Positions 46,692-52,179 of a DNA stretch of 64,000 nucleotides are shown piece after piece. Position 1 is the first letter of the stretch; every line of letters begins with the position of its first letter. The notes under the pieces were generated by a model. That model was not told the origin of the DNA and did no database searches. It saw only the letters and a program-made list of their open reading frames with translations. Source of the stretch: Octopus vulgaris. Lineage: Eukaryota. Where the stretch lies: the NCBI GenBank assembly GCA_951406725.2, contig OX597824.1:34162001-34226000 (forward strand). Direction: 5' to 3'. Both the position numbers and the translations under genes were made by a program.

Positions 46692-46716
46692 TATATATAT
46701 ATATATATATATATAT

Positions 46717-46814
46717 ATACAAATAAATGAAAGAATGGAGTTGAACGACGATTTAACAAAATGAAGGAATTTTGTTAAATCGTCGTTCAACTCCATTCTT
46801 TCATTTATTTGTAT
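46717..46814. repeat. Perfect hairpin, 46-bp arms with 6-nt loop, between (TA)n tracts
   Basis: atacaaataaatgaaagaatggagttgaacgacgatttaacaaaat-gaagga-attttgttaaatcgtcgttcaactccattctttcatttatttgtat. Confidence 0.95.
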
Positions 46815-47512
46815 TAAAAAACACACAAATTTCAACACGAAAGCACGTGATCTCTGCCCTTGGCATGTAGCTTCAACCGTGTTTTTCTGACGTGAATTTG
46901 CTACTCAGGTATCGGTTAACCGAATTATCCATACTAAGATAATTCATTCAACTACTTATATATATATATATATATGCATATACATATGTATAAATATATA
47001 TATATATATATATATATATATACATATATATATATAAGTATATATTTATGTATGTATTATATATATATATATATACATATATGTATGTATGTGTGTATAT
47101 ATATATATATATATATACATATACATATATACACACATATATATATATGTGTGTGTGTGTGTGTGTGTGTATATATGTATATATTAATATATTTATATAT
47201 ATATATATATATATATATATATATACATACATATATATATATATATGTATATATAATAATAATTTGAGGGAATATTATTCCTAACTTACAGGGAAAAATT
47301 CAGTTTAGAAATACTAAATCAAATTTCACAAAATATAATATATATATATGAAAATTAGAAAAAAAACACCTTTTATCAATTCAAAATGAACAATTAAATT
47401 ACACCATCTAGAAAATTACATATAATAGAAATATTAAAAATAAAATAACAATAATATACCGATGATTAAGTAAATTGCAAAATAATAATAAAAATGTATA
47501 TATTTGGTAGAA

Positions 47513-47616
47513 TAACGACACGTGTTTCGTGGCTATATTTAAGAAATGATTATAGTAAAAAAATTAATAGCAGTAGTAAAATCACTTCGATATAGATATA
47601 GCCACTCATCAGGTTA
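47513..47616 (-). ncRNA. Type I hammerhead ribozyme with extended stem II
   Basis: Minus strand: taac-CTGATGA-gtggctatat...atatagccac-GAAAC-acgt-GTC-gtta. Intact core, 10-bp stem II, palindromic stem III (acacgtgt), 4-bp stem I. Confidence 0.8.
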
Positions 47617-47711
47617 AAAATAAACTACAATAATACAATAATTAATTAATAAATATACGTAAATAATCTTTTAAAATATAAATATATTCTTTAAAATATA
47701 TATATATATAT

Positions 47712-48004
47712 ATAAGCAAGGAAAAATTGTAAAAATGCAGAATGCTAAATTGAAAGAAAATTTTAATGAAATGAGAAATTGATAAAATATATAAATATAT
47801 ATTTATTCAAACGTTTTCCATAGTGTGACTTATCAAGAATAGTTAGGTAAAAAGTTTTAAAAAACTTTTTACCTAACTATTCTTGATAAGACTATGAAAA
47901 CCGGTTTGAATAAATATATATTTATATATTTTATCAATTTCTCATTTCATTAAAATTTTCTTTCAATTTAGCATTCTGCATTTTTACAATTTTTCCTTGC
48001 TTAT
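47712..48004. repeat. Near-perfect palindrome of about 290 bp
   Basis: ataagcaaggaaaaattgtaaaaatgcagaatgc...gttaggtaaaaagtttt|aaaactttttacctaac...gcattctgcatttttacaatttttccttgcttat. Confidence 0.93.
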
Positions 48005-49395
48005 CATTTCTCCACGTGCGGTCAACACAACCCCACCATTTATTGATCTATATATATATATATATATATATATATATATATATATACATATATATATAAG
48101 ATACTAAATATACAGTGTATATATAATGTATTTGTTAATGGTAATTTAGATATGTACATTTATTTAATTATTATTATTTTATAATTATTATATCTGAACG
48201 TAAATTTTAAAATATTAGTTAGTCACTTTGTGATTTAGATAGTAAAAATGTTTTAATTTAACTAAAAGTTCTTATTATATTTCTAGTACTATTACATTTA
48301 ATAATAATAAGTATTTTATAAGTGATAAGTTGTACGTTTTTAGCTTTGGAATTTTTCATTTCTTATTTCATAAATATTTTCAAAAATTACCTATAATATT
48401 TATGTAAGTAATAATGGACTAATTCATTTATTGTTTATATGTTTATTGATAGAAAAAATATGGATTTTTAATTACTATATTTGTTGATTATAATTTAGAT
48501 ACTTATTTTTATAAATTTATTATTTTATAATTATTATATGTGGACTAAACTCTAAAAATATTATGAGTGATTGTTTTGTAAAATAGTTTGGTAATTAAAT
48601 ATTAGAGTATAATTAGGTTAAAGATATTCTATAGTTTATTAATGTTTTTTATTAAAGCTAAATTATATCTTCACAGATAAATACATTTTTCTTTCTATTT
48701 ACTCTATTTTTTTACCTTAAATATTTAACATAATAAATGTATTGTAGGCAACTGGTCCTAATGTCTAAAGTTTCAAATTTAGTTAATGGAGTTTCTTCTA
48801 CAAGAAAAATCATTATTTTATTTTTTTAATAAATCAATATTTAACTCTATTTGCTTATTCATTTAACTATTATTGTTAACCCAAAGAGTGACTATAATTT
48901 TAAATTGAATTGTTTTTTGATTAAATTTAAATTTAATTGTAATTCAAATTTAATTATAGCCATGAAACATACGTAGTTTTTTTAATTATATATTGTTTAT
49001 TCATTATTGTAATTTTTGTGATCTAATTATATGTTTTAAAATATATTTTATCTTTTTTATTTATGTATGATTTGGTTTATACCTATCATTGTTTGAATTG
49101 CACAATAGTGGTTTTTCTCTAATTTATATATATTATATATTTATATTGTGAAATTTGATTTAATACTAAATTGAATTTTTCCCTGTAAGTTTGGAGTTAT
49201 GCTCCCTAATATTATTATATATATATATATATATATATATATATATACATGAGACATTAATGCACCTGGTGGCTGTTCCCCTGTCGTAGACCATGACTGT
49301 CCTACATGAGGGGACAAAACATATGTAGGTATAACATAGTGTTATATTTATTACTGATTGTTTCTCGTTTATTTCAGAAAATGCAGTGAAGTTTG

Positions 49396-49437
49396 TTTTG
49401 CTGACGAGATCATTATAACATCGAAACATGTCCGGGG
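49396..49437 (+). ncRNA. Minimal type I hammerhead ribozyme motif
   Basis: ttttg-CTGACGA-gat(cattataac)atc-GAAAC-at-GTC-cgggg. Stem III is palindromic (acatgt). Stem I is mostly G-U pairs. Confidence 0.6.
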
Positions 49438-50030
49438 TTGTCTCCCGTATTTATTGAAATCCTTAAAATAATGTTAGTCATTGATACTATTACTATTCTT
49501 TTATTACCTAATTATACTATTTAAAAATTGTATAAGTCTCCACTCGATTTAATTATGATAACATCAATTTAGCTATCATAGGCTTCAGTTTACTTTAAAT
49601 CTGATCCCTTGTTACTGTTTAAACCAAGTTAGCTTGAATCGAACAGGCATATATATTTCAACTACAACCAGCCTATCTGCCTTTTAAGACACTGTATTTA
49701 GTATCAAATTGTCTTGTGTATCGGTTTTTTAAGACAGTAGATTTGACTGCTATTGCTAGCAGATCGAAAGACCAAGTAAAATCTTTCTTGTTGATTTTTA
49801 CTCACTGACTCTTCCATTCACACTGTGAATGTGTGTGTGTGTGTGTGCATGCGTGTATCGACAGGCGGTTGTTAGTGCCATCAAAGTAGTTAGGAGCTAT
49901 AAATTAGTTATACCAAAATGAGTATGAAGTAGATAAGCAGCAAAAACACAGGAAAGCAAAAGTTCGTAGCAGTTCTTCATAAGCCTTTTGACGTACTTTT
50001 ACGTTATAAATATACGTGTGTGAGTGTGTG

Positions 50031-51009
50031 TATATATATATATATATATATATATATATATATATATATATATATATATATATATATACATATGCATATA
50101 TATATATATATATATATATATATATATGTATATATATATATATATATATATATATATATATATATATATATATATATATATGTATATATATATATATATA
50201 TATATATATATATATATATATATATATATATATATGCATATATACATATGCATATATATATATGTATATATATATATATGTATATATATGCATATATATA
50301 TATATATATATATACATATATATATATATATGTATATATATATATATATATATATATATATATATATATATATATATACATATATATATATATATATATA
50401 TATATATATATATATATATATATATATATATATATATATATATATATGCATATATACATATGCATATATATATATATATATATATATATATATATATATA
50501 TATGCATATATATATATATACATATATATATATCTATGTATATATACATCTATGTATATACATATATATGCATATATACATATGCATATATATATATATA
50601 TTATATATATATATATATATATATATATATGTATATATATATATATATATATATATATATATATATATATATATATATATATATATATATATATATATAT
50701 ATATATATATATATATATATATATATATATATATATATATATATATATATATATATATATATATATATATATATATATATATATATATATATATATATAT
50801 ATATATATATATATATATATATATATATATATATATATATATATATATATATATATATATATATATATATATATATATATATATATATATATATATATAT
50901 ATATATATATATATATATATATATATATATATATATATATATATATATATATATATATATATATATATATATATATATATATATATATATATATATATAT
51001 ATATATATA
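50031..51009. repeat. Very long (TA)n microsatellite (about 1 kb, with TACA/TGCA interruptions in the left half)
   Basis: Seen directly in the sequence. Confidence 0.98.
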
Positions 51010-51968
51010 CAGAACCCTGAGGACACTAAACACCTGCAATGTGAGCTGGACGAAATATACAAGTGGGCTGAAAAGAATAGCATGCAGTTCAATGCTGGAA
51101 AGTTTCAAGCTTTATACTATCAGCATGCAAAACTGAATGCAATACCCAATGAATACACTGGACCCGGAGGGATTGCAATCCCAGAGGCACAATCAGTGCG
51201 TGACCTGGGTATTCACATGAGTGATGACGCGACCTTTCATGTACATGTTGCTAAACTGACAATGAAATGTAGACGGCTGGCTGGCTGGATTCTTAGAACC
51301 TTTAGAACAAGAGAACAAGAAACCATGATGGTCCTCTGGAAGACACTTGTCCTAAGCCACTTTGACTATTGCTCTCAGCTATGGTCACCATCCAGTGTCA
51401 AGTTGATCACAGAACTTGAGGCGATCCAACGAAGCTACACAAAGAAGATAGCCTCTATGCAGAATGTAAGCTACTGGGAAAGACTCAAGAGATTAAAATT
51501 ATATTCCCTGGAGCGTAGGCGGGAAAGATATGCCATAATATACATCCTAGAGGGAAGTGTCCTGAACTTTGGCATCGAGAGTTACGCAAATGCCAGAACT
51601 GGGCGCCACTGCGTGGTGCCTAGGACTCCAAACCTGCCATCAAGATGTAGGACAAGATTCTGTGATAGCCTGGGCTTCCGAGGCCCACAGCTCTTCAATA
51701 TCCTCCCGAAGAACCTGAGAGACCTGCATGGGGTGGATACAGATGTCTTTAAAATGAAGCTGGATCTCTTCCTGTCAGGTGTCCCAGATGAACCAACTTC
51801 ACGGCAGGAGGGGCAGATGAGGGCAGCTGCATCGAACTCTCTCATGCACCAAATAGCAGTTGCTAGAAAGCCTCCATGAAGTGAAACCAAGTAGCAACAC
51901 CAAATGGCGGTGCCCCAGCATGGCCACAGCTCATAAGCTGAAAGTAGAATCAATCAATCAATCAATCA
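51010..51968 (+). mobile_element. 5'-truncated CR1-group LINE (RT C-terminus, 3' UTR, (ATCA)n tail)
   Basis: About 290 uninterrupted codons: [24 protein letters not shown]...VRDLGI...[10 protein letters not shown]...[21 protein letters not shown], stop at 51879. Tail aatcaatcaatc. Flanked by (TA)n on both sides. Confidence 0.93.
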
Positions 51969-52005
51969 TATATATATATATATATATATATATATATATA
52001 TATAT

Positions 52006-52165
52006 ATTTATTATATAGAAGGAGCTTCTACAGGACTAGAACTGTTTCATTCAAGAGAAATCATCAGGAAGCTAGTTAACAAGAATTCTTGTTAACTAGC
52101 TTCCTGATGATTTCTCTTGAATGAAACAGTTCTAGTCCTGTAGAAGCTCCTTCTATATAATAAAT
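52006..52165. repeat. Perfect 160-bp palindrome containing two divergent hammerhead motifs
   Basis: Dyad centre in GAATTC (52083-52088). The arms are exact reverse complements. Confidence 0.97.
52098..52148 (+). ncRNA. Type I hammerhead ribozyme (mirror copy on - strand at 52023-52073)
   Basis: agcttc-CTGATGA-t-ttc(tctt)gaa-t-GAAA-cag(ttctagtc)ctGTA-gaagct. Stem I is 6 bp, stem III is ACAG/CTGT, the GUA cleavage triplet ends at 52142, and stem II is short. Confidence 0.72.
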
Positions 52166-52179
52166 TAATTTTACTCTGC

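What the first reader, a model, noticed from the sequence alone, without database searches (positions are those of the whole stretch)
46700..52170. A (TA)n-rich block holding a cluster of hammerheads and foldbacks
Seen: within about 5.5 kb, unrelated modules are each bounded by (TA)n. They are a 46-bp-arm perfect hairpin, a hammerhead-bearing unit, a palindrome of about 290 bp, an inverted partner unit, another hammerhead unit, a CR1 LINE and the double-hammerhead palindrome. The three hammerhead loci differ in sequence, so they are different families. Inference: (TA)n acts as a repeated landing site for small non-autonomous ribozyme-bearing retroelements (Penelope-dependent, retrozyme-like) that often integrate as foldbacks. 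This may be an undescribed family set in this lineage.
Basis: partly seen in the sequence, partly recalled or inferred. Interest (0 to 1): 0.75.

Follow-up and report, generated by a model that had tools for sequence, protein, structure and literature searches.

The report
Pile-up of Penelope retroelement tail ends
This block holds the clipped tail ends of five high-copy Penelope-type jumping-gene families that landed one after another in TA repeats, each family carrying a predicted self-cutting RNA motif; it is a known kind of insertion, and the unusual part is that some parent elements have multi-kilobase, microsatellite-rich tails that likely supply new landing sites.

Summary
The modules are real, but they are not small non-autonomous retrozymes. 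Five (M1, M2, M3, M4, M7) belong to high-copy families (915-3,235 search candidates each). Longer copies of each lead into, or join directly onto, a Penelope-like RT/GIY-YIG ORF: four Hydra-type, one Neptune-type. The link is weaker for M2 and M4. All five families carry type I hammerheads and end in (TA)n in 116 of 140 sampled copies (background 7.6%). The foldbacks are the published "inverted 5'-truncated pLTR plus tail" structure. The third hammerhead (49401) is an old decayed repeat without TA bias. The 290-bp palindrome sits inside the M2 element's own TA tract. No tandem hammerhead monomers were found, and copy 5' ends do not pile at the cut site. Two points are of further interest. The M7 parent has a ~3.7-4.6 kb, 62% microsatellite 3' UTR. 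And all 52 inverted arms scored end at a fixed tail-less site, with 5' breakpoints independent of the other arm, which fits two-strand priming. This scan noted the same kind of structure before on other DNA of this genome. Cleavage and RNA circles are untested.

The parts
46717..46955 (+). M1: 3' stub of a Hydra-type PLE; tail-less inverted arm 46717-46762, sense arm from about 46769, 141-nt tail; hammerhead clipped off (sense arm starts about +3 from the family cut site)
   Evidence: parent 833-aa ORF in L317
47261..48114 (-). M2: 3' stub of an AT-rich, likely Hydra-type PLE with intact type I hammerhead; split by M3; last 16 nt resume at 48099-48114
47517..47612 (-). M2 hammerhead: CUGAUGA core, 10-bp stem II with long loop, palindromic helix III, predicted cut after GUC
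47712..48048 (+). M3: Neptune-type PLE 3' stub as foldback (arms 47712-47858 and 47861-48004) plus 44-nt tail, inserted in M2's internal (TA)n; both arms hold degenerate U3-A8 hammerheads (cores at 47883-47890 + and 47829-47836 -)
48129..49213 (+). M4: 3' stub of the sister family of M2 (70% identical), with an internal ~346-bp duplication; hammerhead core at 48880-48888 mutated
49368..49502 (+). M5: old decayed dispersed repeat with hammerhead 49401-49432; relatives 72-83% identical over 54-129 nt; parent not found
50031..51009 (.). (TA)~490 tract
51010..51947 (+). M6: 5'-truncated LINE 3' end (RT C-terminus; CR1-like by recalled motifs), followed by (AATC)n
52006..52457 (+). M7: Hydra PLE 3' stub; tail-less inverted arm 52006-52085, sense arm with hammerhead core at 52104-52110 and predicted cut after 52142, tail to 52457
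52181..52403 (+). SINE-like repeat with A-tail inserted in the M7 tail (tRNA-derived by recall)

Best explanation
The block is a pile of 5'-truncated 3' ends of five high-copy Penelope-like retroelement families (four Hydra-type, one Neptune-type) that likely inserted independently into (TA)n tracts, plus a LINE, a SINE and an older hammerhead relic. Shown: multicopy families, TA-abutting ends, a hammerhead in each family's terminal repeat, links to RT/GIY-YIG ORFs, and the nesting order M3 into M2 and SINE into M7. Inferred mechanism: the element's GIY-YIG nicks both strands of a TA tract, and each 3'-OH primes reverse transcription on element RNA, one at the distal site (arm with tail) and one at a fixed internal site (tail-less arm). 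The two cDNAs stop independently and are joined head to head by short microhomology, which gives the foldbacks. Each insertion leaves TA on both sides and some elements bring internal TA tracts, so the site likely keeps attracting more insertions. The hammerheads probably act on long precursor transcripts and are not what sets these stub lengths.
For: Copy search: 1,890, 3,235, 1,738, 2,538 and 915 first-look candidates for M1, M2, M3, M4, M7 (40 scored each). TA ends in 116 of 140 copies vs 7.6% and 1.2% backgrounds. Parents: M3 leads into RT thumb + GIY-YIG (Pfam E 7e-5) with CX4CxxC linker; M1 into an 833-aa ORF with DKT, YRDD, YIGET, CxxC, CxH; M7 into an EN with CxCX5C in 3 of 30 loci; M4 into a decayed Hydra-type ORF in L321 and L281; M2 joined directly to related ORF pieces in L053 and L038. 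Inverted arms end at a family-specific tail-less site in 21/29, 17/29, 5/30, 7/29 and 2/22 loci; none carries the full tail; all 52 abut TA. M7 foldbacks found with a tail-free query have exactly one tail in 11 of 11 parsed (of 16) loci, 9 different centres, and arms closer within a copy (0.45 differences) than between copies (1.78). In 12 of 21 M1 foldbacks the inverted arm reaches more than 20 nt further 5' than the tailed arm, which plain snap-back of one cDNA cannot give. Literature: inverted truncated pLTR, optional tail, (TA)n bias and hammerheads in Hydra (PMC8557442); both strands cut and extended, two RT start sites that define the tail, cleavage dispensable in vitro (PMC11167929).
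Against: No empty-site allele was seen, so TA as a target versus TA added or expanded later is not separated. The M2 and M4 links to ORFs rest on two loci each, with decayed frames. RT was not seen in the M7 parent loci (only linker and EN). Samples are the 30 best of 40 scored hits, not random copies, and hold only 1.5 kb upstream. The short-end positions were read from the data before counting. Asymmetric arms could also come from later deletions at hairpin centres. Tails here (42-148 nt) are longer than the 30-40 bp described. M5 has no identified parent.
Confidence: 0.88

Rival explanations
1. The modules are small non-autonomous retrozyme-like elements that self-cleave into unit-length linear or circular RNAs and are mobilised in trans by PLEs.
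For: Intact hammerhead cores in most copies (M1 24/30, M3 23/24, M7 30/30, M2 22/30); many very short copies; the window M1 copy starts about 3 nt after the cut site; an earlier scan note reports a retrozyme-like array elsewhere in this genome (e1-8666589, not checked).
Against: Long copies connect to coding PLEs; one hammerhead per strand in 8 of 8 long loci checked; no 150-450 bp tandem in the block; 5' starts within 10 nt of the cut site in only 4/29 (M1) and 2/29 (M3), with 11/29 M1 starts further downstream.
Confidence: 0.06
2. Same PLE origin, but the foldbacks arise by self-priming or snap-back on one template (as proposed in PMC3846280), and the arm asymmetry comes from later deletions.
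For: Arms within a copy share subfamily variants; 5 of 21 M1 inverted arms start in the palindromic helix III and several centres are near-symmetric.
Against: In 12 of 21 M1 foldbacks the tail-less arm is the longer one; in L181 and L194 the inverted arm starts in the ORF kilobases upstream of a sense arm of about 300 nt.
Confidence: 0.25
3. The hairpins are long-read or assembly artefacts, or random cruciform-type duplications at TA tracts.
For: Perfect arms beside very long (TA)n; no contig of an independent run spanned this exact hairpin.
Against: Family-specific fixed short ends in 52 loci; contigs from 3 of 4 other public runs switch to (TA)n at the same M1 short end, 46814.
Confidence: 0.03

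Closest known systems
Hydra-clade Penelope-like elements, incl. Hydra-1_Obim of Octopus bimaculoides (Craig et al. 2021, PMC8557442; passages, section 11, supplement look-ups)
   Same: C-terminal EN without CCHH, DKT, CxCX5C linker (M7, M4 parents), CxxC and CxH motifs, canonical hammerhead, (TA)n insertion, inverted truncated copy plus tail.
   Different: Described as generally <3 kb; here 3' UTRs of about 2.4 kb (M4) and 3.7-4.6 kb (M7, 62% short tandem repeat). The M1 parent has an Asn-rich insert where CxCX5C should be. The Hydra-1_Obim hammerhead listed in File S2 differs from all of these.
Neptune-clade PLEs (as defined in PMC8557442)
   Same: M3 parent: RT then C-terminal GIY-YIG with CCHH and a CX2-5CxxC linker finger.
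   Different: U3-A8 hammerhead core (known from Schistosoma PLEs, PMC4209133); no tree was built.
Inverted pLTR/tail insertions of Adineta vaga Penelope (PMC3846280, passages) and Anolis PAc (PMC11167929, passages)
   Same: Head-to-head inverted pLTR, optional tail, Asn-rich ORF inserts, two RT start sites.
   Different: Here a strict one-tailed rule and independent 5' breakpoints are counted over many copies; tails are 42-148 nt.
Animal non-LTR retrozymes (PMC7229834, passages; bioRxiv 10.64898/2026.07.22.740005, part 1 of 5 and passages)
   Same: Type I hammerhead, low GC, PLE ancestry.
   Different: Retrozymes are non-coding 150-450 bp tandem monomers giving circles; these modules are single truncated ends of long, coding elements.

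Membership tests
EN+ Penelope-like element | RT plus GIY-YIG endonuclease ORF upstream of the terminal repeat | tested here: met
   M1 and M3 show both domains; M7 shows linker+EN; M4 and M2 show decayed RT thumb+EN in two loci each
EN+ Penelope-like element | 5'-truncated copies with adjacent inverted copy and optional tail | tested here: met
   52 inverted arms, none with full tail
EN+ Penelope-like element | Hammerhead in the terminal repeat | tested here: met
EN+ Penelope-like element | RT phylogeny places it among PLEs | not tested
   no reference sequences at hand; motifs only
Hydra clade (M1, M2, M4, M7) | C-terminal EN lacking CCHH, with CxxC and CxH around the E and N residues | tested here: met
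   M1 CGVC/CMH; M7 CDLC/CMH; M2 CSLC and M4 decayed equivalents
Hydra clade (M1, M2, M4, M7) | CxCX5C linker motif | tested here: inconclusive
   present in M7 and M4 parents; absent in the M1 parent, Asn-rich stretch instead; not covered for M2
Hydra clade (M1, M2, M4, M7) | DKT and RWK motifs N-terminal of RT | tested here: inconclusive
   DKT present, RWK not found in the M1 833-aa ORF; region not recovered for the others
Hydra clade (M1, M2, M4, M7) | (TA)n insertion preference | tested here: met
   weakest for M4 (11/23, many others end in (ATT)n)
Neptune clade (M3) | C-terminal EN with CCHH and CX2-5CxxC linker | tested here: met
   CARPNCGTC linker, CAGC plus two His
Non-LTR retrozyme | Direct tandem monomers of 150-450 bp each with a hammerhead | tested here: not met
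Non-LTR retrozyme | No protein-coding parent | tested here: not met
Non-LTR retrozyme | Unit-length linear and circular RNA | not testable with these tools
   only contigs of runs guessed to be RNA
Type I hammerhead ribozyme | Core CUGANGA/GAAA/UH with stems I-III | tested here: met
   M2 and M7 window copies and M1/M3 family copies; M7 has U.U closing stem II (precedent HHR_Amex2, PMC7229834); window M3 and M4 copies are broken, M5 is weak
Type I hammerhead ribozyme | Self-cleavage | not testable with these tools
   bench assay needed

The most novel reading that the evidence does not exclude
Octopus-type Hydra PLEs carry multi-kilobase 3' UTRs made largely of (TA/TG)n microsatellite, so each insertion spreads microsatellite DNA and plants new (TA)n targets for all TA-seeking PLEs (M3 sits in M2's own tract). 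Their foldbacks record twin priming from both target strands at two fixed RNA sites. PLEs would then be an engine of the microsatellite-rich genome and of self-feeding insertion hotspots.
Probability: 0.45. Interest if true: 0.55.

Novelty: new member of a known kind. Interest (0 to 1): 0.33.

Why it matters
The cluster itself is ordinary PLE debris and should not be reported as a new retrozyme system. It is useful in three ways. It gives five young to middle-aged families (M7 has at least 30 copies with 99-100% identical 150-nt ends) in which the still-unexplained origin of PLE inverted ends can be tested by counting. It shows a Hydra element whose long 3' UTR is mostly microsatellite, a possible source of TA-rich DNA. 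And it warns that automated annotation will call such stubs MITEs, SINEs or unknown repeats.

Tried and rejected
Rfam scan of the window: 0 hits at gathering score. My interim idea that M7 is a long non-coding non-autonomous element was overturned. The idea that stubs start at the hammerhead cut site was not supported. M2+M4 as one foldback was rejected: 70% identity, both with full tails, each 85-95% like its own family. The Neptune ORF beside M2 in L324 is a separate insertion with its own end. No shared terminal sequence between families above shuffles except M2/M4. A tail-only search for M7 returned nothing; the tool skips very common words, so M7 5' ends were sampled only upstream of the hammerhead. 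Expression: no RNA holder listed on record; contigs of four runs guessed to be RNA cover the M1 end but cannot show ends, strand or circles. No contig spanned the window's own M1 hairpin. Pfam gave no significant hit for the 833-aa Hydra-type ORF or the window LINE peptide. Literature searches for Penelope + twin priming + inverted (2 papers, listing only, neither on PLE ends by title or abstract) and for Penelope + microsatellite + untranslated + spread (13 listed, one checked) gave no description of twin priming in PLEs or of microsatellite 3' UTRs; the library lacks most subscription papers, Repbase and Dfam. Octopus + hammerhead ribozyme gave nothing on these families.
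Full report
Setting. The window lies on a large contig of a 2.8-Gb, 227-contig animal genome. It looks like an octopus genome; that is my inference from its repeats and from earlier scan notes. The block ends about 640 nt upstream of the start codon of a protein phosphatase 1 gene (ATG 53093; exon at 59597-59731, Pfam STPPase_N E 3e-16).

Observation. The hairpin (46717-46814), the hammerheads at 47612-47525 (minus) and 49401-49432, and the perfect 80-bp-arm palindrome (52006-52165) are there. 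The 290-bp palindrome is 95% arm-to-arm and the 'partner unit' is 70% like the first unit. Rfam reports nothing at gathering score. I name the modules M1 (46717-46955), M2 (47261-48114, minus), M3 (47712-48048), M4 (48129-49213), M5 (about 49368-49502), M6 (LINE, 51010-51947) and M7 (52006-52457).

Copy number. Own-genome searches gave 1,890 (M1), 3,235 (M2), 1,738 (M3), 2,538 (M4) and 915-1,030 (M7) first-look candidates, 40 scored each. These are lower bounds, not counts. All 30 loci fetched for the M7 end are 99-100% identical over 150 nt. M5 has only 19 other hits, 72-83% identical over 54-129 nt around the hammerhead.

TA flanks. A (TA)5 run begins within 25 nt of the 3' end in 28/29 M1, 22/29 M2, 25/29 M3, 11/23 M4 and 30/30 M7 copies (window copies left out), against 7.6% of flank positions and 1.2% of window positions outside the block. 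Many misses end in (ATT)n, (CA)n or (TC)n. M5 relatives have TA within 200 nt in 2 of 19. Another of the five families lies within about 1.5 kb in 7 of 140 loci, never two others, so this five-family pile is an extreme case of mild co-clustering.

Parents. M3: longer copies run upstream into an RT thumb and a GIY-YIG domain (Pfam PF01541, E 7e-5) with a CX4CxxC linker and CCHH, the Neptune layout. M1: L317 holds an 833-aa frame with DKT, YRDD, an Asn-rich linker, YIGET, CGVC and CMH, followed by the M1 end; 150 related RT pieces were scored in the genome, several in frames over 700 aa. M7: the terminal repeat is preceded by a 3.7-kb stretch that is 62% short tandem repeat, has 18 (TA)5+ tracts, and is colinear by unique 20-mers across six loci. 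I first took this for a non-coding element. But in 3 of 30 loci the inverted arm begins in an endonuclease ORF (CNCPDKTTC, YIGMT, CDLC, CMH) whose stop runs straight into that stretch; stop to short end is 4.6 kb in L328. M4: L321 has a decayed AT-rich ORF of the same type running into the shared body about 2.4 kb from the end, supported by L281. M2: related ORF pieces join directly to M2 in L053 and L038. These features match the Hydra clade (PMC8557442, section 11). An octopus Hydra family with (TA)n preference is already listed there, with a different hammerhead; my motif searches of that supplement found none of these families, but it may not hold the sequences as text.

Hammerheads. Family copies carry type I motifs. 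M1 core and helix III are intact in 24/30 (set chosen with a hammerhead-bearing query). M3 has the U3-A8 core in 23/24, a variant known from Schistosoma PLEs (PMC4209133, part 1 of 4). M7 is intact in 30/30, with stem I, helix III and a U.U closing stem II; axolotl HHR_Amex2 has that mismatch and cleaves weakly (PMC7229834, passages). M2 scored in 22/30 and M4 in 9/24. In the window, M2 and M7 look intact, M3 and M4 are broken, M5 is weak, and M1 starts just after the cut site. An RNA spanning the whole M7 palindrome folds as one hairpin and would hide both motifs.

Foldbacks. In loci anchored on the tail, inverted arms end at a family-specific point short of the 3' end: -135 to -150 (M1, 21/29), -42 to -50 (M3, 17/29), about -70 (M7, 5/30), -77 (M2, 7/29), about -82 (M4, 2/22). 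None has the full tail, all 52 abut TA, and 9 other inverted ends lay elsewhere. Only 1.5 kb upstream was held, so long inversions are missed. With a tail-free query, 11 of 11 parsed M7 foldbacks (16 loci; the other 5 show one tail each by eye) have exactly one tail, with 9 different centres and arms more alike within than between copies. Either orientation can carry the tail (L318). In 12 of 21 M1 foldbacks the tail-less arm extends over 20 nt further 5' than the tailed arm, in 3 the reverse, and many junctions overlap by 1-8 nt. 5' starts lie within 10 nt of the cut site in 4/29 M1 and 2/29 M3 copies, no clear spike; five inverted arms include bases upstream of the cut, inside the palindromic helix III, so they came from uncleaved RNA. 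Other public runs show the same short-end-to-TA junction, which argues against artefact.

Order of events. M2's family has an internal TA tract; in the window M3 sits in it and M2 resumes at 48099-48114. The SINE interrupts the M7 tail. M2 and M4 both have full tails and are 14 nt apart, best read as two insertions.

Mechanism. The inverted truncated copy, optional tail and TA bias are standard for PLEs (PMC8557442, passages; PMC3846280, passages). The Anolis PLE cuts and extends both strands, starts RT at two sites that define the tail, and does not need hammerhead cleavage in vitro (PMC11167929, passages). I infer twin priming: one strand at the distal site, the other at the internal site, then end joining. 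I give this about 70% against self-priming with later deletions. I found no paper stating it for PLEs, a narrow search.

Verdict. New members of a known kind. The retrozyme reading fails on tandem organisation and on coding parents; circles remain untested. Earlier scan notes describe the same class of structure elsewhere in this genome; the short-end/long-end wording comes from one of them and prompted the count. What seems less described is the long microsatellite 3' UTR and the nesting into element-borne TA tracts. A recent octopus repeat annotation lists 31 recently active Penelope-like families and has no mention of ribozymes in its main text (PMC13282606, passages; supplements not read), so these families may already be in its library. 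Interest 0.33.

Noticed in passing
window 53093-53145 and 59597-59731: First coding exons of a protein phosphatase 1 catalytic subunit gene (beta-like N-terminus); the insertion pile ends about 640 nt upstream of its ATG.
   Followed up: partly
window 58562-58690: A second head-to-head pair of hammerhead-like motifs (CUGAAGA cores, 9-10 bp stem II closed by A-U), unrelated to the block's families and lying in the first intron of the phosphatase gene; not flanked by long (TA)n.
   Followed up: partly
L208 5615-9286; L205-L210, L328: 3.7-4.6 kb 3' UTR of the M7 Hydra element, 62% short tandem repeat, colinear across loci on different contigs.
   Followed up: yes
L317 2741-5239 (minus); L321: Asn-rich inserts between RT and EN in two Hydra-type families, like the N-rich inserts described in Adineta Penelope.
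   Followed up: partly
window 47810-47830 and 47890-47905: Both M3 arms carry different small deletions at the same spot (hammerhead stems II-III) while matching perfectly elsewhere; cause unknown.
   Followed up: no
window 49330-49400: A GT...TTTCAG intron-like stretch just upstream of the M5 hammerhead, recalling the intron next to the Drosophila virilis Penelope hammerhead.
   Followed up: no
L143 6555-6769: Another foldback in (TA)n with sequence resembling the M1 end, probably a further Hydra-type family.
   Followed up: no
L324 7660-8703 (as oriented): A second Neptune-type family (46-66% protein identity to the M3 parent) inserted beside an M2 copy.
   Followed up: partly
window 32317-33245: Five tandem 185-bp copies (96% matches) of a SINE-like repeat.
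   Followed up: no
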